Shown: piece by piece, positions 33,375 to 62,955 of the stretch
Position numbering within the stretch: the first letter of the stretch is position 1
Layout of the letters: each line of letters starts with the position of its first letter
NCBI GenBank assembly: GCA_038087875.1
Contig: CM075994.1
Span: 6,760,001 to 6,824,000, forward strand
Direction: 5' to 3'
DNA length: 64,000 bases
Source of the DNA: Malacoraja senta
Taxonomy: Eukaryota
The notes under the pieces: model-generated
Database searches by the model: none
Told to the model about the DNA's origin: nothing
Seen by the model: the letters and a program-made list of their open reading frames with translations, nothing else
Program-made: the position numbers and the translations under genes

Positions 33375-33645
<271 letters not shown>

Positions 33646-37489: not shown

Positions 37490-38330
<841 letters not shown>

Positions 38331-38587
38331 TATGAAGGATCAATGCGTATTTGTGAGTATGTGTAAATATACTCACACTGATTTTTTTCCTTCTCATTTA
38401 TTATATTGTTTACAGTGTACTATGTTTACATAGTGCTGCTGTCAGTAAGAATGTCATTGTTCTATCTGGGACATTTGACAATAAAGCACTCTCGACTCTC
38501 TCTCGAATTGGTTTCTATAAAATGTCCCTAGCTGTAGGATGCGAAAATGGGATAACGTAGAACTAGTGTGAACGGGTCATCTATGGT

Positions 38588-39459: not shown

Positions 39460-39520
39460 ATGTCTGGGTACCACCTGTGCGTCTATTTACCCCTGCTTCT
39501 TGACCTCGTCTCCTCCGCAG
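39460..39520 (+). CDS. 2-Ig/5-TM gene exon 1: signal peptide
   Basis: ATG at 39460, MSGYHLCVYLPLLLDLVSSA, donor GCAG|GTAAGC, phase 1; lies in non-repetitive, relatively CpG-rich DNA. Confidence 0.75.
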
Positions 39521-40264
39521 GTAAGCAACGTGTGCAAGTTAAGTAAAGTGCTCAGATTAGTGCAAACTTGTGCAAGTTAACAGTAAAAAGTTGCAGCGAG
39601 AAGGTTCCTGCAGCGAGCGAGCGAATCCTCCCTTTCTCCGCGTGTGTGTGTTTGTGGGGAGAAATTGGGATATAATTATCCCCTCTTAAAATAATGCTCA
39701 GATATTCCCACCTTCTGCAGATAGACACAAAAAGCTGGAGCAACTCAGCGGGACAGGCAGCATCTCTGGAGAGAAGGAATGGGTGACCTTTCGGGTCGAG
39801 ACCCTTCTTCAGATTGCCCGGCCCGCTGAGTTACTCCAGCTTTTCGTGTTTATCTTCGGTTTAAACCAGCAGTTCCCCCCTATTGTTTCCCCGCTGCTTG
39901 TAACCCTTCTTTCCTTTCGTTTTTCATTTTCTACATAGCGTTTCGTTATCGCTGCGGTTTCATAGATTCGAGGGACAAGGGTTTGTGTACAAATATGTGA
40001 GCGTTGGGATTTTCTGCGAGTTTTCTGGGACCTCCTGTTTACCAAGTCCTGCTAATTCCACTACCACCAGTCCACCACCTCCTCTGCTCACGCTATCCTG
40101 GTTTCACGCACGAATTTGTGGCTTTATTCGCGATCTTTATTTAAACGCTTATTTTCTTGCCTGAGTTTCCTTGTAATATTTGTCCCGCCGTCGCGCCTTT
40201 GAGCTGAGAAAGAGACGAAGTGCTTGATGACTCAGCGGGTCAGGCAGCATCTCTAGAGAACGGT

Positions 40265-40293
40265 CTGAAGAAGGGTCTCGACCCGAAACGTCA
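40265..40293 (+). ncRNA. Minimal type I hammerhead ribozyme motif in a Penelope-derived terminal repeat
   Basis: CTGAAGA-A-GGGTCTCGACCC-GAAA-CGTC|A: CUGANGA core, stem II GGGT/ACCC, GAAA, palindromic ACGU stem III, GUC cleavage triplet. Identical copies at 43476-43504 and 59154-59182. Confidence 0.65.
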
Positions 40294-40735
40294 CCCATTC
40301 CTTCTCTCCAGAGATGCTGCCTGTCCCGCTGAGTTACTCCAGCTTTTTGTGTCTATCTTCGGTTTCAACCAGCATCTGCAGTTCCTCCCGGAAGTCACAT
40401 GGACGTCTTTGATTCTGGTTAAAGAAATGGTATCTGCAGTTCCTTCCTACACACCCTAGAGAACGTGTTTAGTAAGACCTATCCATGTTCTCCAGGAATG
40501 CTGCCAAACCCGCTGAGTTACTCACAAATAGTTGGAGTAACTCAGCGGGTCAGGCAGCATCTCTGGAGGAAAAATAATTGGTGTCATTTCGAGTCGGAAA
40601 CGTCACCTATCCATGTTCTCCACAGATGATGCCTGATCCTCTGAGTTACTGCAGCTTTTTGTGTCTATCTTCGGTGCAAACCAGCATCTGCAGTTCCACA
40701 CAGTTTGGTATTTGGTTGGGGCTTGATTTCTTGAA

Positions 40736-43570
40736 GATAGACACAAGAAGCTGGAGTAACCCAGCGGGGGACAGGCAGCGTCTCTGGGGAGAAGGAATGG
40801 ATGATATTTTGGGTCGAGACCTTTTTTCAGACTGGTTAGGGATGAGGGACACGAGAGATATAGGTGGTGATGTGGAGAGATAAAGAACAATGAATGAAAG
40901 ATATGCAAAAAAGTTACGATGATAAAGGAAACAGGCCATTGTTAGCTTCTTTGGTGAAAATGAGAAGCTGGTGTGACTTGGGTGGGGGAGGGATGGAGGG
41001 AGAGGGAATGCAAGGGTTACTTGAAGTGAGAGAAATCAATGTTCATACCTCTGGGTTGTAAGCTGCCCAAGCGAAATAGACCTACTCTCTCCGACGAGAA
41101 TTCTGCAACACTCTCTCTTTCTCTCTCTCTCTGCTTCCCCTCTGTGATATCTGACTCTATGACCACGTTTTAAACCAGACTCACTACCACAGCCACGTGT
41201 GTTTTCTTGGTGCTTGCCTGCACCTCCATCTTCTACCTCAGGGATTCCAGCTCCGGTTCTAGTCATCCCAGTTCGGACCCAACCAGGATTATAGGTACCG
41301 ACAGGTACTCGCTCTGACTGTCCCACAGCTCCGGGCCTCACTCACCCACATCTGCAACGGCCCCCAACTTTTCTTCATTCTACGCCAGATCCACACCCTC
41401 AACCAACGCTTCCTCGCCTACCTGGACTCCACTAACAATTGCTGAACAATCCCCATTCCAGGCGTACACTGGCCCTATCCCCAAACTCTATCGCAGTTAC
41501 GTTGCCAACTGCATCGGTGCCACCTCCTGCACCCATGCAGAACTTATGGACGTCATCAACCTCACCACCAATTTCCATCCTGTAATCAAATTTACTTGGA
41601 CCATCCCTGACACCTCCCTCCCCTTTCTTGATCTCACAGTCTCCATCACAGAAAATAGACTATTGCCTGACGTCTATTACAAACTCTCTGACTCCCACAA
41701 CTATCTCGACTATACTTCTTCCTACCCTGCTTCCTTCAAAGACTATATTCCCTACTCCCAATTCCTCCGTCTATGCCGCATCTGCGCCCAAGATGAGGTG
41801 TTCCATACCAGGACATCCGAGATCTTTAGGGAACGGGGGTTGCCCTCTCTCATCATAGATGAGGTCCTCACTAGTATCTCCTAGTCGCAACAGTGGCAGA
41901 GTCCCCATTGTCCTTACCTTCCACCCCATCAGCTGGCGCATACAACACATAATCCTCCAAAATTTCTGTCACCTCCAACGGGATCCCACCACTCGCCACA
42001 TTTTCCCATCTCCACCCCTTTCCGGCTTCCGCAGACACCGTTCCCTCCACAACTCCCTGGTTAACTCATGTGGATATATGTGAGGTTATCCACTTTGGTA
42101 GCAAAAACAGGAAGGGAAATTATTATCTAAATGGTGTCAAGTTGGGAAAAGGGGAAGTACAACAGGTTCTGGGGGTCCTTGTTCATCAGTCAATGAAAGT
42201 AAGCATGCAGGTACAGCAGGCAGTGAAGAAACCTTCATATCAAGAGGAGTTGAGTATAGGAGCAATAGGGTCTTTCGGCAGTTGTACAGGGCCCTAGTGT
42301 CAGTGAGACCACACACGGAGTATTGTGTGCAGTTTTGGTCTCCAAATTTGAGGAAGGACATTCTTGCCATTGAGGGAGTGCAGCGTAGGTTCACAAGGTT
42401 AATTCCCGGGATGGCGGGACTGTCATATGCTGAGAGAATGGAGCGGCTGGGCATGTATACTCTGGAATTTAGAAGAATGAGAGGGGATCTTATTGAAACA
42501 TGTAAGATTATTAAGGGTTTGGACACGCTAGAGGCAGGAAACATGTTCCCTGTTGGGGGAGTCCAGACATGTTGGGGGAGTCCAGAACCAGGGGCCACAG
42601 TTTAAGAATAAGGGATAAGCCATTTAGAACGGAAATGAGGATACACTTTTTCACACAGAGAGTTGTGAGTGTGGAATTCTCTGCCTCAGAGGGCGATGGA
42701 GGCCGGTTCTCTGGACACTATCAAGAGAGAGCTAGATAGGGCTCTTAAAGATAGCGGAGTCAGGGGATATGGGGAGAAGGCAGGAAATGGGTACTGATTG
42801 TGGATGATCAGCCATGATCACATTGAATGGCGGTGCTGACTCGAAGGGTTGAATGGCCTACTCCTGCACCTATTGCCTATTGTCTATTGCCATCCCTTCT
42901 CACCCAAACAACCCCCTCCACAGCTACCTTCCCCTGCAACCTCAGATGATGCAACATCTGTCGCTATACCTCCTCCCTCGACAGACCTTTCAAGTTAGGC
43001 AGAGGTTCATTTGCACCTCCTCCAACCTCATCTACTATATCCGTTGTTTAAGATGCGGACTCTTATACATCGCCGAGACCAAACGTAGACTGAGCGATCA
43101 TTTTGCAGAACACCTTCGCTCAGCCTGCCTGAATTCTCCTTCCCGTTCCTACACAGATCTTTCTGTCCTAGTTCTCCTCCATTGTCAGAGTGATACTAAA
43201 CACAAATTGGAGGAATAGCATCTCATATTTTGCTTGGGCAGCTTACAGCCCAGTTGTATGAATATTGATTTCTCTCACTTCAGGTAGCCCCGGCATTCCC
43301 TCTTTCTCTATCCTTCCCCCACCCAAGTCGCACCAGCTTATGTTTTCACCCTACAAACAGCTAACAATGGCCTGTTTCGTTTATCATCATTATTTTTTTT
43401 GCATGCCTTTCAATCTTTGTTCTTTATCTCTCTACATCACCATCTATATCTCTCATTTCCCTTTCCCTGACCAGGCTGAAGAAGGGTCTCGACCCGAAAC
43501 GTCACCCATTCCTTCTCTCCAGAGATGCTGCCTGTCCCGCTGAGTAACTCCGGCATTTTGTGTCTATTTT
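40736..43570 (+). mobile_element. Penelope-like element (RT C-terminal half and GIY-YIG) with an inverted 5' pseudo-LTR, interrupted by CR1
   Basis: NFHPVIKFTWTI..SLPFLDL..YYK.SDSHNYLDYTSSYP...IPYSQFLRLCRIC (41546-41884); FQVRQRFICTSSNLIYYIRCLRCGLLYIAETKRRL..FAEH (about 42985-43120); 40736-41078 is a diverged reverse complement of 43226-43570. Confidence 0.8.
42069..42888 (+). mobile_element. CR1 3' fragment nested in the Penelope-like element
   Basis: CEVIHFG...RPHTEYCVQFWSP...; tail CTATTGCCTATTGTCTATTG. Confidence 0.85.
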
Positions 43571-44167
43571 CAAAGAAAAGACTATACATGAATTGAAATT
43601 ATGATTTGGGCAGCATGGTGGTGCAGCGGTAGAGTTGCTGCCTCTCACAGTGCCAGAGACCCGGGTTCGATCCTGACCATGGGTGCTGTTTATACAGAGT
43701 TTGTACGTTCTCCCCGTGACCTGCGATGGTTTTCTCAGAGATCTTCGGTTTCCTCCCACACTCCAGTACCTGCCTCAACAACCTAGTTCAGTTTAGTTTA
43801 GAGATACAGCATGGATACAGGCCCTCCGGCCCACCGAGTCCGCACCGACCAGCAATCTCCGCACAGTAACACTACCCTACACTGGACATTTTAAACATTT
43901 ATACCAAGCCAATTGACCTACAAACCTGCATGTCTTTGGAGTGTAGGAGGAAACTGAAGATCTCGGAGAAAACCCACGCAGGTCACAGGGAGAACGTGCA
44001 AACTCGTACAGACAGCACCCGTAGTCGGGATCGAATCCGGGCCTCTGGCGCTGTGAGGCAGCAACTCTACCGCTGCACCACTGTGTGGCTCCTGTGACCG
44101 CGTGCGTTTTCTCCAGGTTCATTGTTTGTTTGTTTGTTTGTTTGTATGCTTGTTTTTTGTGTGTACA

Positions 44168-44200
<33 letters not shown>

Positions 44201-45885
44201 TATATGTATGTATATATATATATATATATCTGACAGCACATTCTATATGCCCCTTGGCTTCCTATTACTCCTCTATTACCTATGGTACCTGATATTCAAG
44301 AGTCAAGATTGTCTAGAGTTATGCATCTGGAGTGTTTAATTGTCATATGTACTGGCAACAGAACAATTAAATTCTTAGGTAGACAAAAATGCTGGAAAAA
44401 CTCAGCGGGTGAGGCAGCATCTATGGAGCAAAGGAAAAATAAATACTTTATATCTCTTTTGACGGCACTGGGCCTCTACTCGCTGGAGATTAGAAGATTG
44501 AGGGGGGACCTCATTGAACCCTGTAGAATAATGAAAGGCATAGATAAGAATGGATGTGGAGAGGATGTTTCCACTGGTGGGAGAGTCAAGGACCGGAGGT
44601 CATAGCCTCAGAATTAAAGGGCGCTCTTTTAGAAAGGAGGTGAGGACGAACTTCTTTAGTTAACATGTGGAACACAATGCCACAGAGGGCTGTGGAGGCC
44701 AAGTCAGTGGATATTTTTAAGGCAGGGATAGACAAATTCTTGATTAGAACGGATATCAAGGGTTATGGAGAGAAGGCAGGAAATTGGATTAGGAGGCAGA
44801 GATCAGCCATGATTGAATCATGATTGAAGGCCTAATACTACTCCTATAACTTGTGAACTTGTGAAATCTCTACATCACCGTATATATCTCTTGTTTCCCT
44901 TTCCCCTGACTCACAGTTTGAAGAAGGGTCTCGACCCGAAACGTCACCCATTCCTTTTTCTCCAGAGGCGCTGCCTGTCCCGCTGAGTTCCTCCAGCTTT
45001 TTGTGTCTATCTTCGGTTTAAACCTGCATCTGCAGTTCCTTCCTGTACAAAATTCTTACTTGATACAACTTCACAATCCTATTGGAATGACATACAAATA
45101 AACATACAATTATCAAAAATACCATAAATTAATAATCAGTAATGCTAGGTAATCAGTCCGTCACTAAAACAGTTTATAACACATTCTAGTAATAAAGCTC
45201 ACAGTATTCCCTCTAACACTTTAGTTCTCACAATTCTTCCACAATAACATCTAATCCTACCACTGCAGGACTATCCGAGGCACTAATTCATAAAATCATA
45301 AGATTATAAGTGATAGGAGTCTAATTGGGCCATTCGGCCCATCAGGTCTACTCCGCCATTCAATCATGGCTGATCTATCTCTCCCTCCTAACCCCATTTT
45401 CCTGCCTTCTCCCCATAACCTCTGACACCCGTACTGATCAAGAATCCATCTATCTTTACCTTAAAAATTACCACTGACGGCCTCCACAGCCTTCTGTGGC
45501 AAAGAATTCCACAGATTCACCACCCTCTGACTAAAGAAATTCCCCCTCATCTCCATCCTAAAAGAACGGCCTTTAATTCTGAGGCTGTGACCTCTAGTCT
45601 CAGACTCTCCCACCAGTGGGAGCATCCTCTCCACATCCAATGTATCCAGGCCTTTCACTATTCTGTACGTTTCAATGAGGTCCCCCCCCCTCATTCTTCT
45701 GAACTCCAGCGAGTACAGGCCCAGTGCCGACAAACGCTCATCGTAGGTTAACCCACTCATTCCCGGGATCGTTCTTGGGAACCAAGGGGGAAACCCAAGC
45801 TTAAATCTGTTCCCTCCGCTCTCCTGTGTTCTGAATTGGATCCTCCCGTGCCTCTCAGATGATGACTATTTCTCTTGGTCCTCAG

Positions 45886-46200
45886 GGAAAACGTTGACGC
45901 CAAGCTTGGAGTTGTTCGGTGCCATCGGATCATTCGTTGTGCTACCTGGTCCCGGCGAAAAAGAAGTTCAAAATGTGCGACACCTTCGGTGGGCATTTGG
46001 AAATATCCGAATTATAGATTATTTTTACCCCTCATTGCAAAACGCCACATTCACCAACTTCTATAAGGATCGATGCGAGTTCAACTATTCCAACGGATCG
46101 GTGGTGCTGAAAGGTTTAACAGCACAAGACCAAGGTCTCTATAAAGTTGACGTTGATTTAAACGCCAACAACAGCAGAGTCATCAAACTAAATGTTATGG
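45886..46200 (+). CDS. 2-Ig/5-TM gene exon 2: V-type Ig domain lacking the B-F disulfide (CD2/CEACAM/HEPACAM-like)
   Basis: TTTCTCTTGGTCCTCAG| (alternative in-frame acceptor gives exon start 45859). GKTLTPSLELFGAIGSFVVLPGPGEKEVQNVRHLRWAFGNIRIIDYFYPSLQNATFTNFYKDRCEFNYSNGSVVLKGLTAQDQGLYKVDVDLNANNSRVIKLNVM, then G|GTGAG; C-strand W, YxxR, NGSxxL and DxGxY motifs; phase 1/1. Confidence 0.9.
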
Positions 46201-47872
46201 GTGAGCAGTGTATTGGCTTATTATTGTGTTGCATAGTTTAAGTCTCTTATACAGCCTTGAAAGAGGCCCTCTGGCCCAACTTGCCCATGCCGACCAACCA
46301 CCATCTACGATAGCACCACCAGCCTGTGTTTCGCAAGTTCTAAAAGTAGAATTAGGCCATTCGGCTGATCTCTGCCTCCTAATCCCATTTTCCTGCCTTC
46401 TCCCCACAACCCTTGATACCCGTTCTAATCAAGAATTTGTCTATCTCTGCCTTAAAGATATCCACTGACTTGGCCTCCACAGCCCTCTGTGGCAATGAGT
46501 TCCACAGATTAACTACCCTCTGACTAAAGAAGTATCTCCTCACTTCCTTTCTAAAAGCGCGCCCTTTAATTCTGAGGCTACGACCTTTGGTCCCACCAGA
46601 AACATCCTTTCCACACCCACTCTATCTGTGCCTTTCATTATTCTGTAAGTTTCAATGAGGTCCCCCGTCAACCTTCTGAACTCCAGCGAGTTCAGGCCCA
46701 GTGCTGCCAAATGCTCATCATATATTAAGCGACCCATTCCAGGAATTATTCTTGTAAACCTCCTCTGTACCCTCTCCAGCACCAGCATATCCTTCCTCAG
46801 ATATGGGGCCCAAATTTGCTCACAATTTTCCAAATGCGGCCTGACCAGCGCCTTGTAGAGCCTCAGCGTTACATCTTTATTTTTGTATTCCAGTCCTCTT
46901 GACACATATCCATATGGGTTTGGCCCATATCCCTCAAAACTTGTCCTATCCATGTACCTGTACAAATGTTTTTAAAACCTTGAGATAATACCTGCCTCAA
47001 CTACCTCCTCCGGCAGCTCGTTCCATATACCCACCACACTTTGTATTAAAAAAGTTGCCCCGTCAGGTTCAGATGAAATCTTTCTCATTAAATCGATGTC
47101 ATCTAGTTCTTGATTCCACTACTCAGGGTAAATGCGCAGTCCATTCCATTCATGATCTTATACACCTCTATAAGATCACCCCACATCCTCCTGGGTTCCA
47201 AGGAATGTATAGAAGTTGGGAGGTCATGATGCTGCTGTATAAGATGTTGGTGAGGCTGCATTTAATGTACTGTGTTCAGTTCTGGGCACCATGTTATAGG
47301 TCTCTTGCCCAGAGTAGGTGAATTGAGGACCAGACTAGGTTCAAAGTGAAGGTGAAAAGATTTAATAGGAATCTGAGAGGTAACCTTTTCACACAAAGGG
47401 TGGTGGGTGTATGGAACAAGCTGCCAGAGGAGGTAGTTGAGGCTGGAACTATACCAACATTTAAGAAACAGTTAGACAGGTACATGGGTAGGACAGGTTT
47501 GGAGGGATAATCCTCCTAATCTCCTTCCTAAAATAACGTCCTTTAATTCTGAGGCTGTGACCTCTAGTCCAAGACTCTCCCACTAGTGGAAACATCCTCT
47601 CCACATCCACTCTGTCCAGGCCTTTCACAATTTGGTACGTTTCCTTCTCATCCTTCTAAACTCCAGCGAGTACAGGCCCAGTGCCGACAAACGCTTGTCG
47701 TATGTTAACCCACTCATTCCCGGGATCGTTCTCGTAAGCAAATCTCCTCTGGACCCTCTCCGGAGCCAGCACATCCTTCCTTAGATACGGGGCCCAAAAT
47801 TGTAACAATTTTATTTGGAAACTCCATAAAGTTGTCTTAATGCTCAGACCGTTTATTTTCATTCTTCATCAG

Positions 47873-48145
47873 AACGACTGTTGTCTCCTTCAATTACCAC
47901 TGGTATTGCCATGGTGGATAAGGACATTAATCTGACATGTCAAGTGGCTGGAGGGAAGGCGAGCTCAGTTCGATGGATGAAAGACGGCCAAATGATAACA
48001 AATAACGATGACACATATCGCTTATTGCGAAACAACTTCACCTTGCAGATCCAGAATGCCCAAAAATCAAATTGTGGAGTCTACACTTCCATCCTGGAAA
48101 ATCATGTCAGTGAAGTGAACCATTCTTACCATCTCTTCATTCATG
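47873..48145 (+). CDS. 2-Ig/5-TM gene exon 3: C2/I-type Ig domain
   Basis: TTCTTCATCAG|; ERLLSPSITTGIAMVDKDINLTCQVAGGKASSVRWMKDGQMITNNDDTYRLLRNNFTLQIQNAQKSNCGVYTSILENHVSEVNHSYHLFIH, then G|GTGAGT; phase 1/1. Confidence 0.9.
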
Positions 48146-48923: not shown

Positions 48924-48955
<32 letters not shown>

Positions 48956-51287: not shown

Positions 51288-51321
51288 AGTTCCTTCCAAC
51301 ACATAATATTTCCTATTTCAG

Positions 51322-51438
51322 GTATTCCTTCTCTGCATAGCACAACCCTGAGCCTCTCCATTGTGGCTCTGATTTTTGGCTGCACAGTATTCATCGGCAT
51401 CATCGTTTCTTGTTTACTGGGAGGCAGTACTGCAATAA
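51322..51438 (+). CDS. 2-Ig/5-TM gene exon 4: TM1
   Basis: TTTCCTATTTCAG|; GIPSLHSTTLSLSIVALIFGCTVFIGIIVSCLLGGSTAI; A|GTAAGA; 117 nt, phase 1/1. Confidence 0.85.
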
Positions 51439-52742: not shown

Positions 52743-52844
52743 GTCTCCCGTCTCATCAAAAAATATTGCTATTCTTGCAGTTGGCGTCAATGGTATCGCT
52801 TGTCATACTCATGGCAGCAATTTGTTTCTGGGGGAAAACTTCAG
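52743..52844 (+). CDS. 2-Ig/5-TM gene exon 5: TM2
   Basis: TTATTTTTGCAG|; SLPSHQKILLFLQLASMVSLVILMAAICFWGKTS; CAG|GTAGAG; 102 nt, phase 1/1. Confidence 0.8.
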
Positions 52845-53759: not shown

Positions 53760-56352
53760 GTTATCCCACGTTTTAAGAAAGGCGGGAGAGAGAAAACAGA
53801 GAATTATAGACCAGTTAGCCTGACATCGGTGGTGGGGAAGATGCTGGAGTCAATTATAAAAGATGAAATAGCCGCTCATTTGGATAGCAGTAACAGGATC
53901 GGTCCGAGTCAGCATGGATTTATGAAGGGGAAATCATGCTTGACTGATCTTCTGGAGGATGTAACTCGGAAAATGGACAAGGGAGAGCCAGTGGATGTAG
54001 TGTTCCTGGACTTTCAGAAAGCATTTGATAAGGTCCCACATCAGAGATTAGTGGGTAAAAATTGGAACACATGGTATTGGGGGTAGAGTGCTGACATGGA
54101 TAGAAAATTGGTTGGCAGATATGAAACAAAGAGTAGGGATTAACGGGTCCCTTTCAGAATGGCAGGCAGTGACTAGTGGGGTACCGCAAGGCTTGGTGCT
54201 GGGACCGCAGCTATTTACAATATACATCAATGATTTAGATGAAGGGATTCAAAATAATATTAGCAAACGTGAACTGTGAGGAGGATGCTATGAGGATGAA
54301 GGGTGAATTGGACAGGTTGGGTGAGTGGGCAGATGCATGGCAGATGCAGTTTAATGTGGATAAATGTGAGGTTATCCACTTTGGTGGCAAAAACAGGAAG
54401 GCAGATTATTATCTGAATGGTGTCAGGTTGGGAAAAGGGGAAGTACAAATAGATCTGGGGTCCTTGTTCATCACTCACTGAAAGTAAGCATGCAGGTACC
54501 GCAGGCAGTGAAGAAAGTTAATGGCATGTTGACCTTCTAAACAAGAGGAGTTGAGTATAGGAGCAAAGAGGTCCTTCTGCAGTTGTACAGGGCCCTAGTG
54601 AGACCACACCTGGTGTATTATGTGCAGTTTTGGTCTCCAAATTTGAAGAAGCCATTCTTGCTATCGAGGGAGTGCAGCGTAGGTACACAAGGTTAATTCC
54701 CGGGACGGCGGGACTGTCATATGTTAATAGAACGGAGCGGCTGGGCTTGTATACTCTGGAATTTAGAGGGGATCTTATTGAAACATATAGATGAGAGGGG
54801 ATCTTATTGAAACATATAAGATTATTAAGGGATTTGACACGCTAGAGGAAGGAAACATGTTCCTGATGTTGGGGGAGTCCAGAACCAGGGCCACAGTTTA
54901 AGAATGAGGGGTAGGCCATTTAGATCACACGGTATTGGGGGTTCAGTATTAAATCACACGGTATTGGGGGTTCAGTATTGATGTGGATAGAGAACTGGCT
55001 GGCAAACAGGAAGCAAAGAGTAGGAGTAAACGGGTCCTTTTCACAATGGCAGGCAGTGACTAGTGGGGTACCGCAAGGCTCAGTGCTGGGACCCCAGCTA
55101 TTTACAATTTATATTAATGATCTGGACGAGGGAATTGAAAGCAACATCTCCAAGTTTGCGGATGACACTAAGCTGGGGGGCAGTGTTAGCTGTGAGGAGG
55201 ATGCTAGGAGACTGCAAGGTGACTTGGATAGGCTGGGTGAGTGGGCAAATGTTTGGCAGATGCAGTATAATGTGGATAAATGTGAGGTTATCCACTTTGG
55301 TGGCAAAAACGGGAAGGCAGACTATTATCTAAATGGTGGCCGATTAGGAAATGGGGAGGTGCAGCGAGACCTGGGTGTCATGGTACACCAGTCATTGAAA
55401 GTAGGCATGCAGGTGCAGCAGGCAGTGAAGAAAGCGAATGGTATGTTGGCCTTCATAGCAAGAGGATTTGAGTATAGGAGCAGGGAGGTTCTACTGCAGT
55501 TGTACAGGGTCTTGGTGAGACCACACCTGGAGTATTGCGTACAGTTTTGGTCTCCAAATCTGAGGAAGGACATTATAGCCATAGAGGGAGTGCAGAGAAG
55601 GTTCACCAGACTGATTCCTGGGATGTCAGGACTTTCATATGAAGAAAGACTGGATAGACTTGGCTTATACTCGCTAGAATTTAGGAGATTGAGAGGGGAT
55701 CTTATAGAAACGTACAAAATTCTTATGGGGTTGGACAGGCTAGATGCAGGAAGATTGTTCCCGATGTTGGGGAAGTCCAGGACAAGGGGTCACAGCTTAA
55801 GGATAAGGGGGAAATCCTTTAAGACCGAGATGAGGAAAAACTTTTTCACACAGAGAGTGGTGAATCTCTGGAACTCTCTGCCACAGAGGGTAGTTGACGC
55901 CAGTTCATTGGCTATATTTAAGAGGGAGTTAGATGTGGCCCTTGTGGCTAAAGGGATCAGGGGGTATGGAGAGAAGGCAGGTACGGGATACTGAGTTGGA
56001 TGATCAGCCATGATCATATTGAATGGCGGTGCAGGCTCGAAGGGCCGAATGGCCTACTCCTGCACCTATTGTCTATGTATCTATGTATCTAGAGCGGAGA
56101 TGAGGAAAAACGTTTTCACCCAGAGAGTTGTGAATCTGTGGAATTCTCTGCCTCAGAAGGCAGTGGAGGCAAATTCTCCGGATGCTTTCAAGAGAGAGTT
56201 AGATAGAGCTCTTAAATATAGCGGAGTCAGGGGATATGGTGAGAAGGCAGGAACGGGGTACTGAATGTGGGTGAGCAGCCATGATCACAGTGAATGGTGG
56301 TGTTGGCTCGAAGGGCCGAATGGCCTACTCCTGTACCTATTGTCTATTGTCA
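53760..56352 (+). mobile_element. Older CR1 (RT region to 3' end) containing a younger CR1 at 54924-56090
   Basis: Older copy: NYRPVSLT..GKMLE, QHGFMKGKSCLT, DFQKAFDKVPH, GVPQG, with frameshifts. Younger copy: intact 338-aa ORF 54978-55994 (GVPQGSVLGP, FADD). The older copy resumes at about 56092. Confidence 0.9.
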
Positions 56353-56478
56353 ATGAGGTCCCCCCTCATCCTTATTTCCAGCATCTGCAGTATATTTGAT
56401 TTTCCTTTGTGCCATGCCTCTTATTCACTGTAATTTTAATTTCAGTTATGAATTACTCATTTTTGTTTTCTATTATAG

Positions 56479-56604
56479 AATATTCTGGAATCATAGTGGC
56501 TACATTGGTGATTTTATGTATACTCCTAATACTGATCTTGGTTGCGATGTGCAGTATCAAGACATATGGCTGGGACTGGTTTAATAACATCTTGTCAACC
56601 AATT
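56479..56604 (+). CDS. 2-Ig/5-TM gene exon 6: TM3
   Basis: TTTTCTATTATAG|; EYSGIIVATLVILCILLILILVAMCSIKTYGWDWFNNILSTN; T|GTAAGT; 126 nt, phase 1/1. Confidence 0.85.
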
Positions 56605-57564
56605 GTAAGTTCAATCAAGAGATACGCTACGTTTTACAGAACGCAGTTATAATCACGAGTTAAATATTTCAGCAGTTGCTGCTTAATTTAACCAGTGGTA
56701 TGAATAATGACTCCTCTAACTTCAAGCAACCCTTGCTTTCCTTCTCTCTCCCTCCCTCCTACCCTTCCCAGTTCTCCGACCAGTCTGACTGTCCCCGATT
56801 ACATTATCTCTGTTGCTTTGTTTTCATATTCTCCTATTCTCCTAACAGTGATCTATTCTACATTTTCCTTGACCTGCATTTCTTTTGATACCTCATTTTC
56901 ACACCCTACCCATCCTTATCCCTGTGCCTCCCAGTCCCTTGACTCTCGGTCTGAAGAAGGATCTCGGCCCAAAACGTCTCCCATTCCTTCTAACCAGCGA
57001 TGCTGGCTGTCCCGCTGAGTTACTCCGGAGATTGTGTCTATCTTCGGTGTAAACCAGCTCCTGCAGTTCCTTCCTACACATTAACTTCATAGCTTAGTTT
57101 AGTTTAGTTTAGAGATAGTGTGGAAACAGGCCCTTCGGCCCACCGAGCCCACCACACTACCCTACACACACGAGTGACAATTTTTACATTTACCAAGCCA
57201 AGTAACCTACAAACCTGTATGTGTTTGGAGTGTGGGAGGAAACCGAAGATCTCGGAGAAAACCCACGCAGGTCATGGGGAGAACATGCAAACTCCGCGCA
57301 GACAGCACATGTAGTCAGGATCAAACCCGGGTCTCTGGCGCTGTCTAGCTCTACCGCTGCGCCACCGTGGCACCCTAATTATTAACGCCATTAATCTTTT
57401 TTAGTTCTGGTCAGCCCATTACTGGAAGGATGTGGAGGCATTGGAGAGGGTGTAGAAGAGGTTTACCAGGATGTTGCCTGGATTAGAGGGTATTAGCCTT
57501 TAGGAAGGGTTCGTAAAAAATTGGATTGTTTTCTTGGAGACCAGACATACGTAGGAAAAAAATT

Positions 57565-58215
57565 ATAGAAATAGACAATAGCTGCATGAATATGCCATTC
57601 GGCCATTCAGCCCTTCAAGCCATTCAATGGGATCATGGCTGATCATCCCCAATCAGTACCCCGTTCCTTCCTTCTCCCCATATCCCCTGACTCCGCTATC
57701 TTTAAGAGTCCTATCTAGGTCTCTCTTGAAAGTATCCAGAGAACCGGCCTCCACCGCCCTATGAGGCAGAGAATTCCACAGATTCACAACTCTCTGTGTG
57801 AAAAAGTGTTGCCTCGTCTCCGTCCTAAATGGCTTACACCTTATTCTTAAACCGTGGCCCCTGGTTCTGGACTCCCCCAACATCGGGAACATGCTTCCTG
57901 CCTCTAGCATGTCCAAACCCTTAATAATCTTATATGTTTCAATAAGATGCCCTCTCATCCTTCTAAATTCCAGAGTATACAAGCCCAGCCGCTCCATTCT
58001 GTCAGCATATGACAGTCCCACCATCCCGGGAATTAACCTTGTGAACCTACGCTGCAGTCCCTCAATAGCAAGAAATCTCCCCAAATTTGGAGACCAAAGC
58101 TGCACACAATACTCCAGATGTGGTCTCTCTAGGGCCCTGTACAACTGCAGAAGGACCTCTTTGCTCCTATACTCAACTCCTCTTGTTATGAAGGCCAACA
58201 TGCCATTCGCTTTCT
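57565..58215 (-). mobile_element. CR1 3' fragment
   Basis: ORF 57653-58201 is a CR1 ORF2 C-terminus, followed by 3'UTR. Confidence 0.9.
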
Positions 58216-60603
58216 ATGAGGCGCATAAATACAGTAGATTGTCAGGGCCTTTCTTCCCTGGGGTGGAAATATTAAATAATAGAGGCCATCGCTTTCAGGT
58301 TAGTTGGGAAAATTCAAAGGCGATATTTTTTAAAAGTGCGATACAGCGTGGAAACAGCCCCTTCAGCCCACTGAGTACGCTCTGATCAGCGATCACCCCA
58401 TACACCAGTCATAGAGTGATACAGTGTGGAATAGGCCCATCGGCCCAACTTGCCCACACGGGCCAACATGTCCCAGCTACACAAGTCCCACCATGGTCCA
58501 CATCCCTCCAAATCCGTCCTATCCATGTAACTGTCCAACTGCTTCTTAAACGTTGGGATAGTCCCAGCCTCAACCACCTCCTCTGGCAGCTTGTTCCATA
58601 AACCCACCACCCTTTGTGTGAAAAAGTTACCCCTCAGATTCCTATTAAATCTTTTCCCCTTCACCTTAAACCTGTGTCCACTGGTCCTCGATTCACTATC
58701 CTACACACTCAGGACAAGTTACAGAGGCCAATTAGCCTACAAACCTACACATCTTTAGATATGCGGGTTGTGGTCTTTTGCACAGAGACTGGTGGTTGCT
58801 TTGAACAAACTGCCAGCGTAGTGGAAGTAGCTTTGATAATGTTTTAAGCGACTTTTTTAAATAGTTGTTTAGTTTCGTTTAATTTTTAGTTTTCTTAAGT
58901 ATAGTTTAGATGACTTTAATTTAGTGTAATGTCATTTAGCTTAACTTGTTTAGCTTAGTTTAGATCGGTTTCGTTCAACTAATTTCAGCTAGTTTCACTG
59001 TCCTGATTAGAAATTACTGATTGAACACCTCATTGTCACCTTCCCCTCAGCTAACAGTGAATCATTCTGCATTTTCCTTGAGCTCTGACCCTAATGATCT
59101 CTTGTTCTCACACCTTACCCTTCCATATCTCTGTGCTTCCCCCTCCCCTGAGTCTGAAGAAGGGTCTCGACCCGAAACGTCACCCATTCCCTCTTTCCAG
59201 AGATGCTGCCTGTCCCGCTGAGTTACTCCAGCATTTTGTGTCCATCTTTAGTTCATCTTAGTTCATCTTAGTTCAGCTTTGCTTAGTTTCACTTAGTTTA
59301 ATTTAGCTTAGTTTTGTTTCGTGATACAGTGTTGGAACACCAAGGAACACACTGTTGGTGTAAACCCATATGATAATGTTGTTTAAGATGCTTTTAAATA
59401 CAGTAGGTGAGGACACAAAATGCTGGAGTAACTCAGCGGGACAGGCAGCACCTCTGGAGAAATGGAATAAGTGACATTTCAGGTCGAGACCATTCTTCAG
59501 ACTGAGAGTCAGGGGAAAGAGAAATGAGAGATATAGAGGGTGATGTAGAGAGATATAGAACAAATGAATGAAAGACATGCAAAAATGTAACGATGATCAA
59601 GGAAACAGACCATTGTTAGCTGTTTGTAGACAAAAATACTGGAGAAACTCAGCGGGTGAGGCAGCTTCTATGGAGCGAAGGAATTCCTTCGCTCCATAGA
59701 TGCTGCCTCACCCGCTGAGTTTCTCCATCATTTTTGTCTACCTTAGATTGTTCCAGCATCTGCAGTTCTTTCTTAAACATTGTTAGCTGTTTGGTAGGTG
59801 AGAACAAGTTACACACAATGAGCCTCAACAAGACAACTTTGAAGCTGGTATGACGGGTGGGGGAGGGATGGAGAGAGAGGGGTTACAAGGGTTACTTGAA
59901 GTTAGAGAAGTCAACATTCATACCACTGGGCTGTAAGCCGCCCAAGCGCAATATGAGATGCCGTTCCTCCAATTTGCTCTGACAGTGGAGGAGGCCCAGG
60001 ACAGAAAGGTCAGTGTGAGAATGGGAGGGGGAGTTAAAATGTTTGGCAACCGGGAGATCCGGTAGGTTCAGGCGGACTGAGCTAAGGTGTTCAGCGAAAC
60101 GATCGGCCAGTCTATGTTTGGTCTCGCCGATGTATGAGGGATTCGTTTAATGTCGCATCACGGTCGATACAGACACTGCAAGCTGAAGGATCTTTATCTT
60201 TGCTGTACTTTAGTTTAGCTTAGTTTAGAGATATAGCACGGAAACAGGCCCTTCGGCCCACCGAGTCCGCACCGACCAATGGTCCCCGCACATTAACACC
60301 ATCCTACACACACACTAGAGACAATTGTTACATTTATTCAAAGCCAATTAACCTACAAACCTGCACGTCTTTGGAGTGTGGGAGGAAACGGAAGATCTAG
60401 GAGAAAACCCACGCAGGTCACGGGTAGAACCTACAAACTCCGTACAGACAGCACCCGTAGTCGGGATCGAACCCGGGTCTCTGACGCTGCTGGCGCTGTT
60501 AGGCAGAAACTCTACCGCTGCGCCACCGTGCCACCCTGATGTTACAGTTACTGTTACGAAATTACTGTTCAAAACATTTTGACTGCATTTGATTTGTTGA
60601 CAG

Positions 60604-60699
60604 TGTGCAGAATTATGGTGGATGCAGTAACCCCAGTGGGCGGACTGATAGTTATTTTCTCATCTGGAATTCTGATAGCAGAGATATTGAAACAAGCTG
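60604..60699 (+). CDS. 2-Ig/5-TM gene exon 7: TM4
   Basis: TTTGTTGACAG|; LCRIMVDAVTPVGGLIVIFSSGILIAEILKQA; G|GTGAGT; 96 nt, phase 1/1; this frame is absent from the ORF track. Confidence 0.8.
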
Positions 60700-62850
60700 G
60701 TGAGTGTTAATTAATATAAATCGTTAAAATAAATTGTGAAAACCTTCGTTATAATAGACCATAGAAGCGGTGGGGGGCTGGGGGGGAAATGGGTCCGTTA
60801 TATTAGAGTAAGGGATTACCGAGCAATAGAGTATCATTGTATAAGTAGTAGATACAACGAACTGCAGATGCTGGTTACAAAATCCTGGAGTAACTCAGCG
60901 GGACAGGCAAGATCTCTGGAGAGAGGGAATGGAGTGCCATTTCGGATCGCGACCCTTCTTCAGACACCATTAAACACCATTCGGGTCTCGACCCGAAACG
61001 TCACCCATTCCTTCTCTCCAGAGTTGCTGTCTGGCCCGCTGAGTTACTCCAGCATTTTGTGTCTATCTTCGGTGTAACTCAAAGGGTCAGGCAACATCTC
61101 TGGAGAACATGGACAGGCGACGTTTCGAGTCAGAAAAGATAGAACAAAAAAATTACTGAAGTAACTCAGCGGGACACGCAGTCTATTCCTTCTCCGCAGA
61201 GATGCAGCCTGACCCACTGGGTTACTCCAGCATTTTGTGTCTATCGTCTGTATTAACCAGCATCTGCAGTTCCTTCCTACACAACGAACCATTCTACATG
61301 TCCTGACCATCATCTGCTTTGATCTGTCATTTTCACACCTTACCCTTCCATATCCTTGTGTCTCCCTCTCCCCTGACTCTCAGTCTGAAGAAGGGTCTCA
61401 ACCTGAGACGTCGCCCATTCCTTCCCTCCAGAGATGCTGCCTGTCCCGCTGAGTTACTCCAGCTTTTTGTGTCTGTCTTCGATGTAAACCAGCATCTGCA
61501 GTTCCTTCCTACGCGTTTTGGGTCGGGGCCCTACTTCAGACTCTGGGTCCGGAACTGGGCCTGGAATTCGGGTGGGTTAATGGCCCCGGACTGCTGGCGA
61601 CCGTGGGAGAGGGGAGGATCGGCGGAGTCGATGATCGCGCGCGGCTGGAGTGCGGGTAGGGTCGGCGGTGTGGACAGCCGGGCCTGGAATCGGCCCGGCG
61701 GAAGCCTTGTGCAGAAACAAAGAACCGCAGATGCTGCCTTACACCAAAGACAGACACAAAGTGGCGGAGTAACTCAGCAGATCAGGCAGCAGCATCTCTG
61801 GAGAGAAAGGAATGGGTGACGTTTCGTAAGTTCATAAGCTCATAAGTTAAGAGGAGCTGAATTAGGCCATTCGGCCCATCAGGTCATTCAACATTGGCTG
61901 TTGGAGTGGCGGAGTAGACTTTCGGAGTTTGGGGGTCGGGATCCTTCTTCAGACTCATCGGCATGAGTCGGTAGTGGTGGTGGCGGTAGTAGGTCCACCC
62001 TGGAGCGGCAATGGGAGGCGGTGAGGGCTGGGGGTGATGTCGGCAGCCTCCACCATAACCTATATCCATTATAAAGAGGTCCGTAGTAACGAGGGCTTAC
62101 TGTAATCTTTTGTTTCGTTTTGTTTAGATTAGTGTAGTTTAGTGTAGTTTAGTGTAGTTTAGTTTAGTTTAGTTTAGAGATACAGTGCAGAAATAGGCCC
62201 TTCCTTGGATCTGAATTTGATTTCAAGGCTTCTCATAGTAACTTGCAAGAATTCGTTTAGTTTACAGATACAGCACAGATAAAGGCCCTTCGGCCCACCA
62301 AGTCCGCACCGACCAGCGATCTCCGCTCATTAACACTACCTTACACAAACTAGGGACATTTTTTATCTTTATACCAAGCCAATTAACCGGTGGAGTTGCT
62401 GCCTCACAGCACCAAAGACCCGGGTTCGATCCCAACTACGGGTGCTGTCTGTACGGAGTTTGTAAGCTCTCCCCGTAACCCGCGTGCGTTTTCTCCATGA
62501 TCTCCAGTTTCCTCCCACACTCGAAAGACGTACAGGTTAATTGGTTTGGTATAAATGTAAATTGTCCCAAGTGTGTGTAGGATAGTGTTTGTGTGCGGGG
62601 ATCGCTGGTCGGTGCGGACTCGTTGGGCCAAAGGGCTGTTTCTGTAAACCAAACTAAACTAATTCTTGTGAGTTACTATGGGAAGCCTTGAAATCAAATT
62701 AAGATCCTAGGAAGAGGCCATTCGGCCTGCTGTATCTGTGCTGTCTTTCACTCTACACTTTGCTAATTAGACCTACAGTTTATAATGACAAATGCTGGAG
62801 TAACTATCATTTTATACGTTTATAATTTACGTTCTTTTGTCTATCGACAG

Positions 62851-62955
62851 GAAAAGGCTGTGAATCCCCAGACAATCTTCTATCAAGTATTCTCCCTGCC
62901 GTCATTGTGCCATCAGTTGTCTTTGTTATATTCTTTGCAAGTTACGCCATACTGT
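62851..62955 (+). CDS. 2-Ig/5-TM gene exon 8: extracellular-loop Cys and TM5
   Basis: TTCTTTTGTCTATCGACAG|; GKGCESPDNLLSSILPAVIVPSVVFVIFFASYAIL; T|GTAAGT; 105 nt, phase 1/1; this frame is absent from the ORF track. Confidence 0.8.

What the first reader, a model, noticed from the sequence alone, without database searches (positions are those of the whole stretch)
39460..62955. Two-Ig-domain, five-transmembrane receptor: a CD2/CEACAM-type ectodomain on a CD47-like membrane domain
Seen in the sequence: eight exons (39460-39520, 45886-46200, 47873-48145, 51322-51438, 52743-52844, 56479-56604, 60604-60699, 62851-62955), all bounded by GT-AG and all phase 1, splice into one open frame of about 398 codons. 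The product is signal peptide, V-type Ig, C2/I-type Ig, then five hydrophobic helices, one per exon, and the last exon still ends in a donor. Established: CD2/SLAM, CEACAM and HEPACAM proteins have this V(no disulfide)+C2 ectodomain but are single-pass or GPI-anchored. CD47 is the textbook Ig protein with a 5-TM domain, has only one IgV domain, and as I recall also encodes its helices on separate phase-1 exons. Inference: this is a hybrid architecture I do not recognise as a named family, either a divergent CD47 relative with an extra Ig domain or an exon-shuffled or convergent 5-TM Ig receptor in cartilaginous fish. Several exon frames are missing from the ORF track, so ORF-based annotation would fragment it.
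Basis: partly seen in the sequence, partly recalled or inferred. Interest (0 to 1): 0.92.

Follow-up and report, generated by a model that had tools for sequence, protein, structure and literature searches.

The report
Two-Ig, five-helix membrane receptor gene
A real, intact skate-type gene encodes a cell-surface protein with two antibody-like domains on a five-helix membrane anchor, a design otherwise known only from the self-marker CD47, and it belongs to an unnamed family found across sharks, rays and chimaeras.

Summary
The eight exons are all GT-AG and phase 1, and they splice into one open 398-codon frame. That frame aligns without internal gaps to two full-length relatives: a 456-aa product of a 1,847-nt Logan contig (86% identity) and a Rhinoraja protein (75%). 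Three tail exons lie 10-20 kb beyond the window, giving 11 exons and 458 aa.

The product is signal peptide, V domain without the core disulfide, C2/I-set domain, five membrane helices and a short tail. The ectodomain folds like CEACAM1, CD58, CD2, CD48 and NTB-A.

The membrane domain defines an unnamed family. 20 representative clusters matched; 19 are chondrichthyan and one is a caecilian. It has no Pfam model.

CD47 did not turn up in Pfam, profile-versus-PDB or fold searches, so homology to CD47 is unproven.

The design is still CD47-like. An extra Cys at the base of the C2 domain and a Cys in the TM4-TM5 outer loop are kept together in 19 of 20 relatives and lost together in one. This suggests an Ig-to-loop disulfide.

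No description was found in print. The function is inferred, not shown.

The parts
39460..39520 (+). Exon 1: start codon and signal peptide (residues 1-20, plus the first base of codon 21)
   Evidence: ATG preceded by an in-frame stop 9 codons upstream. GT donor. Aligns to the N-termini of P0001 and P0002. Helix 6-18 in the AF2 model of the orthologue.
45886..46200 (+). Exon 2: N-terminal V-set Ig domain without the canonical B-F disulfide (CD2/CEACAM type)
   Evidence: AG/GT, phase 1-1. Pfam V-set E 1.6e-4 on the exon alone, 6.6e-9 in P0001. 85% identical to P0001. No Cys at the B- and F-strand positions.
47873..48145 (+). Exon 3: C2/I-set Ig domain. B-strand Cys codon at 47938-47940. Extra E-F-turn Cys codon TGT at 48073-48075. 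Ser codon TCC at 48088-48090, where all 20 relatives have the F-strand Cys
   Evidence: Pfam I-set E 5.9e-14. Codons checked. Cys table.
51322..51438 (+). Exon 4: short Ig-to-membrane linker (HGIPSLH) and helix 1
   Evidence: AG/GT. Family profile positions 2-44, E 1.1e-11. Hydropathy peak at residues 230-248.
52743..52844 (+). Exon 5: cytoplasmic loop 1 and helix 2, ending in the nearly invariant Trp
   Evidence: Profile positions 42-93, E 7.2e-12. Hydropathy peak 263-281. W285 is nearly invariant in A1.
56479..56604 (+). Exon 6: short outer loop 1, helix 3 and the start of the cytoplasmic amphipathic helix
   Evidence: Profile positions 64-117, E 6.8e-12. Hydropathy peak 294-312. In one search, the pieces of a coded-run contig end at 56479 and 56603.
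60604..60699 (+). Exon 7: conserved CR..D..TP.G motif and helix 4
   Evidence: Profile positions 109-149, E 3.4e-12. Hydropathy peak 339-357. In one search, contig pieces end at 60605 and 60699.
62851..62955 (+). Exon 8: outer loop 2 with the invariant Cys (codon TGT at 62859-62861, motif GKGCE) and helix 5. It ends in a GT donor. Three tail exons follow outside the window
   Evidence: Profile positions 148-185, E 3.5e-11. C152 is the only invariant column of A3. Codon checked. Tail exons found in L029.

Best explanation
This is an expressed-type, intact 11-exon gene; eight exons lie in the window and three short tail exons lie 10-20 kb downstream. It encodes a 458-aa type-I multi-pass glycoprotein. 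The order is signal peptide, a distal V domain of the CD2/SLAM/CEACAM kind (no core disulfide), a membrane-proximal C2/I-set domain, a five-helix membrane bundle with two very short outer loops, and a roughly 60-residue cytoplasmic tail.

Shown: the gene structure, the domain order, the five helices and membership of a conserved, unnamed family. That family has at least three elasmobranch subfamilies, plus chimaera and caecilian members.

Inferred: it is a cell-surface recognition or adhesion molecule that works on the CD47 principle. The membrane-proximal Ig domain would be stapled by a disulfide (E-F-turn Cys193 to outer-loop-2 Cys367) onto the five-helix bundle. That would hold the ectodomain in a fixed pose and present the distal V domain for binding in trans. 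The strongly conserved bundle would act as more than an anchor, through lateral association or signalling. Single-exon skipping could vary the tail and the helix count.

Whether the bundle shares ancestry with CD47's is open.
For: Gene model: (splice sites, phases, open frame). One search gives a gap-free alignment to P0001 and P0002. add the tail exons, giving 458 aa with 85.5% identity to P0001 and 2 gap columns.

P0001 is the whole 456-aa frame on a single 1,847-nt Logan contig. The gene spans more than 50 kb here, so that contig is spliced. In one search, one contig of the coded run X1 (depth 13.1) lies on exons 5, 6 and 7, and its pieces end at the exon borders. A DNA-run contig (X4) runs on into the intron.

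Topology: there are five hydropathy peaks. All 7 N-X-S/T sites lie in the ectodomain, and a basic stretch follows helix 5. The AF2 models have pLDDT 79.3 and 77.7.

Ectodomain kind: Foldseek gives CEACAM1b (E 1.3e-13, TMt 0.71), CD58 (0.79), CD48, NTB-A and CD2 (0.77). By sequence, the PDB matches that span both domains are CEA/CEACAM1/6 and CD2.

Family: the membrane part alone finds 20 representative clusters at E<=1e-3. All 20 carry Ig domains in front, and 19 of the 20 are chondrichthyan.

Disulfide inference: both cysteines are present in 19 of 20 relatives and in the window copy. Both are absent in 1 of 20 (P0022), and never one alone. Across all 50 stored proteins, 47 have Cys at the E-F turn, 1 has Ser and 2 lack the motif. 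The E-F turn is at the membrane end of an Ig domain (established Ig topology). V-C2 paralogues on the same contig with Ser or Phe at that spot have no family-type membrane exon within 20 kb downstream. Paralogues with Cys at 7.09 Mb and on C170 do have such exons.

Constraint on the bundle: it is as conserved as the Ig domains, or more so. Against P0004 the membrane domain is 49% identical, V 21% and C2 37%.

CD47 precedent: the C15-C245 ectodomain-to-ECL2 disulfide fixes the ectodomain's orientation and is needed for SIRPalpha binding and signalling (PMC8410850, passages and section 10 read).
Against: No experiment or structure shows the disulfide, surface expression or any ligand. I could not read coordinates from the AF2 models, so the Cys-Cys distance is unmeasured. 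pTM of the full-length model is only 0.56, so the domain-to-bundle pose is not confidently predicted.

The covariation rests on one double loss. The window's own copy has Ser where every relative has the F-strand Cys of the C2 domain. That could mean a damaged copy, a polymorphism or an assembly error.

Predicted isoforms in four other species skip single helix exons, which would flip the topology. If those are the main forms, the five-helix picture is incomplete. No RNA run of this species was available.

No CD47 similarity appeared in any search.
Confidence: 0.6

Rival explanations
1. The membrane domain is unrelated to CD47. A CD2/CEACAM-type V-C2 ectodomain was joined by exon shuffling to a separate five-helix module, helped by all exons being phase 1-1. 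The likeness to CD47 is then convergent. This concerns origin and is compatible with the CD47-like mechanism above.
For: No Pfam PF04549 match in P0001 or P0002 at E<=10, or in 20 relatives at E<=0.01. PF04549 is not among the 25 families listed, of 47 matched, for 16 membrane-only pieces at E<=10. phmmer of the membrane part against 1.84 billion representatives returned only Ig-plus-5TM family members and no CD47. The family profile against PDB sequences found only TRPV4, at E 0.028. CD47 is absent from the listed rows of four fold searches. The Ig cysteine sits in the E-F turn of a C2 domain; in CD47 it is at residue 15 of a V domain (PMC8410850). CD47's conserved SWF linker has no counterpart in the HG(I/L)P linker.
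Confidence: 0.45
2. The family is a true, very divergent relative of CD47. It would be either the cartilaginous-fish counterpart or an ancient paralogue that most bony vertebrates lost. It keeps an extra Ig domain that CD47 lacks.
For: The overall plan is the same. An Ig domain abuts helix 1 through a short linker, followed by five helices, two short outer loops, an invariant Cys in the middle of outer loop 2 and a nearly invariant Gly at the outer end of helix 3. CD47 has C245 in ECL2 and a conserved G191 at the top of helix III. The gene has one Ig domain per exon, five exons for the membrane domain and then short tail exons. Human CD47 has exon 2 for IgV and tails made by skipping exons 8-13 (PMC10902115, passages). 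That its helices are one per exon is my inference from those numbers. No convincing canonical CD47 exon was found in this genome.
Against: All sequence, profile and fold searches were negative (see the first rival). The caecilian Rhinatrema has a member. Tetrapods are known to have CD47, so the relation would be paralogy, not orthology. The exon-wise Pfam search of this genome is insensitive; it also missed IFT57. So 'no CD47 found' carries little weight.
Confidence: 0.3
3. The window's copy is a decaying or non-functional member. The family is real, but this locus has lost a structural cysteine and may no longer make a working protein.
For: Ser (TCC) at 48088-48090 replaces the F-strand Cys, which is present in 20 of 20 relatives. 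That leaves the B-strand Cys unpaired.
Against: All 11 exons are open, and all splice sites and the start codon are intact. Identity to P0001 is even across domains, 85-88%. A single G-to-C difference could be a polymorphism or a base-calling error. The laid runs list no alternative base there, though most rows were cut from that table.
Confidence: 0.08
4. Gene-model artefact: the hydrophobic exons are alternative or mutually exclusive anchors, or belong to another gene. The real protein would then be single-pass, like CEACAM or HEPACAM.
For: All exons are symmetric phase 1-1, so any could be skipped in frame. Predicted isoforms in Callorhinchus, Heptranchias, Stegostoma and Heterodontus each lack one helix exon.
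Against: The five helix peptides are not duplicates of one another; pairwise local scores have z of -1.0 to 1.3 against shuffles. Each matches its own segment of the family profile, in order. A single 1,847-nt contig carries all of them in one frame. The same five-helix order recurs in 20 relatives from 16 genera. A cysteine in the Ig domain covaries with one in the last outer loop.
Confidence: 0.03

Closest known systems
CD47 (integrin-associated protein; Pfam PF08204 V-set_CD47 + PF04549 CD47 membrane region; PDB 7MYZ recalled, paper PMC8410850 read in part)
   Same: An Ig ectodomain sits directly on a five-helix bundle, N-terminus out and C-terminus in. The two outer loops are short. A conserved Cys lies in the loop between helices 4 and 5, matched by an extra Cys at the membrane end of the adjacent Ig domain. 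A conserved Gly lies at the outer end of helix 3. The cytoplasmic tail is short and encoded on several small exons.
   Different: This protein has two Ig domains (V + C2) rather than one IgV. The V domain is of the disulfide-less CD2/CEACAM kind. The Ig cysteine is in the E-F turn of a C2 domain. There is no SWF linker. No detectable sequence, profile or fold similarity of the membrane domain appeared in the searches run here. The family has several paralogues per genome, whereas CD47 is described as a single gene (PMC10902115).
CD2/CD58/CD48/SLAM (NTB-A) and CEACAM1 two-domain ectodomains
   Same: An N-terminal V domain lacking the B-F disulfide is followed by a C2 domain. These are the best fold matches and the only PDB sequence matches that span both domains. 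Related V-C2 genes are clustered on the same contig.
   Different: Those proteins are single-pass or GPI-anchored. This one has five helices, and its C2 domain carries an extra E-F-turn cysteine that the neighbouring single V-C2 paralogues lack.
HEPACAM / HEPACAM2 / CLMP / VSIG1 (names given automatically to relatives in public records)
   Same: V + C2/I-set ectodomain.
   Different: Those are single-pass proteins with long cytoplasmic tails. The names come from Ig-domain similarity only and do not describe the membrane domain.

Membership tests
CD47 family | Match to the Pfam CD47 membrane-region model PF04549 | tested here: not met
   No match in P0001 or P0002 at E<=10, nor in 20 relatives at E<=0.01. 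Not among the 25 families listed, of 47, for 16 membrane-only pieces at E<=10. The 22 unlisted families each matched a single member, and their E-values were not shown.
CD47 family | Single IgV ectodomain matching V-set_CD47 (PF08204) | tested here: not met
   There are two Ig domains (three in some sharks). PF08204 appears only as sub-threshold noise on the C2 domain: E 0.38 in P0002, 6.3e-4 to 7.8e-3 in P0007, P0017 and P0022, all under the 21-bit cut-off.
CD47 family | Five membrane helices, N-out and C-in | tested here: met
   Hydropathy, sequon distribution and a basic stretch after helix 5. AF2 models.
CD47 family | Disulfide between the Ig domain and the helix 4-5 outer loop | tested here: inconclusive
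   The cysteine pair is conserved and covaries: 19 of 20 have both, 1 of 20 has neither. There is no structural or chemical proof, and the position in the Ig domain differs from CD47's C15.
CD47 family | Fold of the five-helix bundle like PDB 7MYZ | tested here: inconclusive
   CD47 is not among the rows listed by Foldseek-PDB, VIA wide, VIA on Foldseek's top 1000, or BFVD. The lists are filled by generic helical bundles, and no pairwise comparison was possible.
CD47 family | Linkage to the IFT57/BBX neighbourhood | tested here: inconclusive
   Exon-wise Pfam searches for IFT57 and the BBX DUF2028 found nothing usable anywhere in this genome.
CD2/SLAM/CEACAM-type ectodomain | N-terminal V domain without the B-F disulfide, followed by a C2 domain | tested here: met
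   Sequence. Pfam V-set and I-set. Fold matches to CEACAM1b, CD58, CD48, NTB-A and CD2 with target TM-scores of 0.69-0.79.
CD2/SLAM/CEACAM-type ectodomain | Single membrane span or GPI anchor | tested here: not met
   Five helices.
Unnamed chondrichthyan V-C2-5TM family (defined here by alignment A3) | Colinear match of five exons to the family's membrane-domain profile, with the E-F-turn and outer-loop-2 cysteines | tested here: met
   All five window exons match successive profile segments at E 3e-12 to 4e-11. Both cysteine codons are present. In the tree the window copy groups with skate sequences at 100/100 support. The profile was built from relatives, not from the window.

The most novel reading that the evidence does not exclude
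CD47 is not a one-off. This family would be a second, ancient jawed-vertebrate lineage of Ig-on-five-helix receptors sharing ancestry with CD47. It would preserve the ancestral state: a CD2/CEACAM-like V-C2 ectodomain disulfide-stapled to the bundle. CD47 would have arisen from that state by losing a domain. In cartilaginous fish the expanded family would serve as polymorphic or paralogous self-markers or adhesion ligands for myeloid or lymphoid receptors.
Probability: 0.2. Interest if true: 0.85.

Novelty: new variant of a known kind. Interest (0 to 1): 0.66.

Why it matters
The paper on the full-length CD47 structure calls CD47 the only known five-helix receptor of the immune system. It reports that the membrane fold resembles no other protein (PMC8410850). 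A conserved second family with the same plan (an Ig domain on a five-helix bundle, with a loop cysteine) gives CD47 a comparator for the first time.

If the two are related, the family shows where CD47 came from. If they are not, the design evolved twice, which suggests that stapling an Ig domain to a small helical bundle solves a general problem of orienting a ligand at the cell surface.

The family has several paralogues per genome. In some shark relatives the V domain has diverged more than the bundle. That is the pattern expected of immune recognition molecules, so it is a candidate for unexplored receptor-ligand systems in the oldest jawed vertebrates.

In practice, public annotation names these genes after unrelated single-pass proteins and predicts isoforms that drop single helices. 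The family needs a profile model and a name.

Tried and rejected
RNA evidence from the same species: no RNA holder was listed. The one laying of reads was swamped by interspersed repeats. The exon-exon joints were not among the rows shown, and only the indirect contig-end pattern in table 3 could be used.

CD47 by profile: the A3 profile against PDB sequences gave two TRPV4 sequences at E 0.028 and 0.04. I take these as hydrophobic-composition matches.

I could not run a profile-profile comparison with CD47, because no CD47 sequence could be obtained from a tool.

ESM Atlas: the membrane part alone gave no usable hit. C2 plus membrane gave a 427-aa, 110-member chordate V-set/I-set cluster at 0.92. 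This is probably the family itself.

Canonical CD47 in this genome: PF04549 gave one hit at E 3.5 that translates to microsatellite-like junk. PF08204 gave two borderline V exons (23.3 and 22.5 bits) that do not look like CD47. This is inconclusive.

Synteny through IFT57 and BBX Pfam models gave nothing usable.

The word-indexed protein search found few members. The exhaustive HMMER search was the productive one.

V-domain homodimer prediction gave no answer.

Earlier findings of this scan held nothing on this genome or sequence.

The idea that the helix exons are tandem duplicates was rejected.
Full report
OBSERVATION.

The eight exons are exactly as described. Their lengths are 61, 315, 273, 117, 102, 126, 96 and 105 nt. 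There are eight GT donors and seven AG acceptors behind pyrimidine tracts, and every intron is in phase 1. The join reads as one open frame of 398 codons, while the other two frames are full of stops. The ATG at 39460 follows an in-frame stop nine codons upstream.

The window is G000:C18:6760001-6824000 of a 1.94-Gb assembly. Its other 39 kb, and the introns, hold LINE fragments, microsatellites and one 200-N gap.

THE GENE IS REAL.

The V exon found two full-length relatives. P0001 is 456 aa and is the complete frame on one 1,847-nt Logan contig. P0002 is 455 aa, an 'uncharacterized protein' of the skate Rhinoraja longicauda.

The spliced model aligns to P0001 with no gap (343/398 identical). 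It aligns to P0002 with only a two-residue gap in the signal peptide (296/396). A gene that spans more than 50 kb here appears as one 1.8-kb contig elsewhere, so that contig must be spliced.

The relatives' last 58 residues pointed to three small exons in the next 20 kb, at C18:6834220-284, 6839509-558 and from 6843405 to the stop. All have AG/GT. They complete an 11-exon, 458-aa model that is 85.5% identical to P0001 with two gap columns.

Same-species RNA was not available. Laying four coded runs was swamped by repeats. Still, one contig of run X1 (depth 13.1) lies on exons 5, 6 and 7. Its pieces stop at 56479/56603 and 60605/60699, which are the exon borders. A DNA-run contig continues into the intron. 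I count that as weak, indirect support for two junctions.

ANATOMY.

Exon 2 is a V-set domain with no cysteine at the B and F strands. Exon 3 is an I-set/C2 domain (Pfam E 5.9e-14). Exons 4-8 each carry one hydrophobic helix.

Hydropathy gives five peaks. All seven N-X-S/T sequons are in the ectodomain, and helix 5 is followed by KHKQQMKTR.

AlphaFold2 on the orthologue's membrane part used a 20-sequence alignment and gave pLDDT 79.3 and pTM 0.69. It shows five long helices plus a short amphipathic helix in the cytoplasmic loop between helices 3 and 4. The full-length model (pLDDT 77.7, pTM 0.56) adds a signal-peptide helix and two beta domains.

The five helix peptides are not copies of one another; their z-scores against shuffles run from -1.0 to 1.3. 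Each matches its own segment of the family profile, in order. That rules out a set of alternative anchors produced by exon duplication.

ECTODOMAIN KIND.

With the full-length model, Foldseek's best PDB matches are:
- CEACAM1b: E 1.3e-13, target TM-score 0.71, rmsd 3.7 A
- CD58: 0.79
- CD48
- NTB-A
- CD2: 0.77

. By sequence, the PDB entries that span both domains are CEA, CEACAM1/6 and CD2.

THE MEMBRANE DOMAIN DEFINES AN UNNAMED FAMILY.

phmmer with the membrane part and tail of P0001 against 1.84 billion representatives found 20 proteins at E<=1e-3. Nine were at <=1e-10 and three at <=1e-30. All 20 carry Ig families in front of the match, and none carries PF04549 at E<=0.01.

By their public records, 19 are chondrichthyan:
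- Sharks: Scyliorhinus, Heptranchias, Stegostoma, Heterodontus, Cetorhinus, Chiloscyllium, Mustelus, Pristiophorus, Carcharodon and Rhincodon.
- Rays: Hemitrygon and Mobula.
- Chimaera: Callorhinchus.

One is from the caecilian Rhinatrema (E 7e-4, same architecture and both cysteines). The names are 'uncharacterized' or automatic Ig-based labels such as HEPACAM-like, CEACAM1-like and VSIG1-like. Some shark members have an extra V domain.

A maximum-likelihood tree of 21 rows, covering the C2 domain onward, gave these groups:
- The window copy groups with the two skate sequences (100/100).
- That group is sister to stingray sequences (98/97).
- A second subfamily holds both sharks and rays (100/100).
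- A third clade is shark-only (97/94).
- The chimaera and caecilian rows are long branches whose placement is unsure.

I left out isoforms and fragments (P0005, P0007-9, P0011, P0012, P0015, P0019, P0024-33, P0035-41, P0043, P0044, P0047, P0049, P0050).

In this genome the window gene's helix exons are single-copy. Second-subfamily paralogues lie on C170/C833, and on the same contig at 6.98, 7.09 and 7.56 Mb on the minus strand. The gene therefore heads a cluster.

IS IT CD47?

Every test I could run was negative or uninformative.
- Pfam's CD47 membrane model does not match P0001 or P0002 at E<=10.
- It is not among the 25 listed families, of 47, for 16 membrane-only pieces.
- The family profile A3 against all PDB sequences finds only TRPV4, at E 0.028.
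- The exhaustive phmmer search returned no CD47.
- Foldseek-PDB, two VIA-align runs and BFVD list generic helical bundles, and neither CD47 nor its poxvirus relatives.

Helical bundles are notoriously hard for these methods. I had no way to run a pairwise superposition or a profile-profile comparison with CD47, so fold-level membership stays open. Sequence-level membership is not met.

BUT IT IS BUILT LIKE CD47.

From the CD47 structure paper I read passages and section 10. [quoted passage not shown] Its IgV domain is tethered to the loop between helices 4 and 5 by the C15-C245 disulfide, which is needed for orientation, SIRPalpha binding and signalling. A glycine at the outer end of helix III is among the few residues conserved as far as poxviruses.

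In the present family, the only invariant column of the membrane alignment is a cysteine in the middle of the helix 4-5 outer loop, in the motif GKGCE(P). The C2 domain carries an extra cysteine in the E-F turn, in the motif KSDCGxYTC, where Ig domains normally have Ser or Ala. The E-F turn lies at the same end of an Ig domain as the C-terminus of strand G, so in this protein it faces the membrane (established Ig topology).

Among 20 relatives chosen one per locus, 19 have both cysteines. One (P0022, Cetorhinus) has Ser and Arg instead. None has just one, and the window copy has both. Over all 50 stored proteins, 47 have the E-F cysteine, one has Ser and two lack the motif.

As a control I looked at V-C2 paralogues on C18 and C20 that read KSDSG or KSDFG. 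Of these, the two on C18 that I followed (at 85 kb and 443 kb) have no family-type helix exon within 20 kb downstream. The paralogue at C18:7.09 Mb reads DCG at its C2 exon and has family-type helix exons. C170, whose C2 motif I did not read, also has family-type helix exons.

A glycine at the outer end of helix 3 is nearly invariant, although it is Glu in the window copy and in P0001.

Gene structure is also parallel: one exon per Ig domain, five exons for the membrane domain, then small tail exons. For human CD47, a review states 13 exons, exon 2 for IgV and tails made by skipping exons 8-13 (PMC10902115, passages). That exons 3-7 hold one helix each is my inference.

MECHANISM, WITH ODDS.

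I put about 0.95 on the gene and architecture. I put about 0.6 on the full picture that follows.

It would be a glycosylated cell-surface recognition or adhesion molecule. Its C2 domain would be disulfide-stapled to a five-helix bundle, and that would fix the pose of a distal CD2/CEACAM-type V domain for binding in trans.

The bundle is as conserved as the Ig domains or more so. Against a catshark relative it is 49% identical, compared with 21% for V and 37% for C2. This argues that it does more than anchor, most likely through lateral association with other membrane proteins, as described for CD47.

The faster-diverging V domains and the several paralogues per genome fit immune-type recognition. 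The binding partner, the expressing cells and any signalling are unknown. A homodimer prediction for the V domain gave no answer.

CAVEATS.

The window copy has Ser (TCC, 48088-48090) where all 20 relatives have the F-strand cysteine of the C2 domain. This could be a real change, a polymorphism or an error.

Public gene models include isoforms that drop one helix exon: helix 5 in Callorhinchus, helix 4 in Heptranchias, helix 2 in Stegostoma and helix 1 in Heterodontus. Because all exons are phase 1-1 these stay in frame, but they would invert the topology downstream. I cannot tell whether they are real.

The covariation argument rests on a single double loss.

NOVELTY.

Six full-text searches found no description of a two-Ig, five-helix family:
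- CD47 with cartilaginous fish, elephant shark or shark
- multi-pass Ig families in cartilaginous fish
- CD47-like in lower vertebrates
- CEACAM or CD2 with cartilaginous fish

In two CEACAM-evolution papers I read only the passages that hit the search terms, and they mention cartilaginous-fish CEACAMs without multi-pass forms. Supplements were not opened. The sequences themselves are already in public databases as automatic predictions.

I rate the finding a new variant of a known kind, namely Ig-on-five-helix receptors, of which CD47 was the only example.

Noticed in passing
window 48088-48090: Codon TCC (Ser198) stands where all 20 compared relatives have the F-strand Cys of the C2 domain. 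The partner B-strand Cys (47938-47940) is kept. One G-to-C change away from TGC. Could be a polymorphism, an assembly error or the start of decay.
   Followed up: partly
G000:C18:6982971-6983309, 7078370-7092369, 7548000-7561536 (outside the window, minus strand): Three further V-C2 loci of the same family's second subfamily lie 160-740 kb downstream. The 7.09-Mb locus has V, C2 (SVDCGTYTC), helix 1, helix 2 and helix 5 (DQGCHS) exons, but helix 3 and 4 exons were not detected at E<=1. The 7.56-Mb locus looks like its duplicate.
   Followed up: partly
G000:C18:19820-444880 and C20:10.17-10.28 Mb (loci L002-L006, L013, L015, L017, L020, L023, L024, L026): A cluster of V-C2 genes whose V exons are 33-39% identical to the window's V exon. 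Where a motif was found (L013, L015, L017, L020, L026), the C2 domain reads KSDSG or KSDFG instead of KSDCG. No family-type helix exon within 20 kb downstream of the two tested on C18. Possibly the skate's CEACAM/CD2-like genes.
   Followed up: partly
proteins P0036, P0007, P0008, P0009 (relatives, not the window): Public isoform models each skip exactly one helix exon (helix 5, 4, 2 and 1 respectively). This keeps the frame but would invert the topology downstream. Real regulated variants or prediction artefacts?
   Followed up: no
protein P0012/P0035 (Mustelus asterias): An extra roughly 29-residue insert between helices 2 and 3 resembles helix 4 (CR..., ...AEV..Q.G), as if a helix-4 exon had been duplicated. 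This would give six spans.
   Followed up: no
window 34783-37482 (-), 28986-29909 (+), 54924-55994 (+): Retrotransposon remains: reverse-transcriptase frames (RVT_1, E 4.9e-24 and 5.4e-14; the second lies inside intron 5) and an ORF with a GDSL-esterase/OSK-like domain, of the kind found in ORF1 of CR1-type LINEs (recalled). Many shorter copies of the same LINE tail are scattered through the introns on both strands.
   Followed up: partly
window 17484-18406: A 7-bp tandem array (consensus CTCCACA, about 126 copies, 77% matches). It creates long spurious open frames in three phases.
   Followed up: yes
window 3295-3494; 33230-33830; 37440-38430: A 200-N assembly gap and two long (CA/TG)n-rich microsatellite tracts upstream of the gene. 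They give long Cys/Val- and His/Thr-rich false ORFs.
   Followed up: no
alignment A3 against PDB: The only PDB sequence match of the family's membrane profile is the S1-S4 region of TRPV4 (E 0.028, 17 bits, profile positions 7-123). Most likely a hydrophobic-composition match, but it covers three helices colinearly.
   Followed up: no
G000:C170 and C833; C106 and C2726: These pairs of unplaced contigs carry identical family-member hits in mirrored coordinates. They look like uncollapsed haplotigs or duplicated scaffolds.
   Followed up: no
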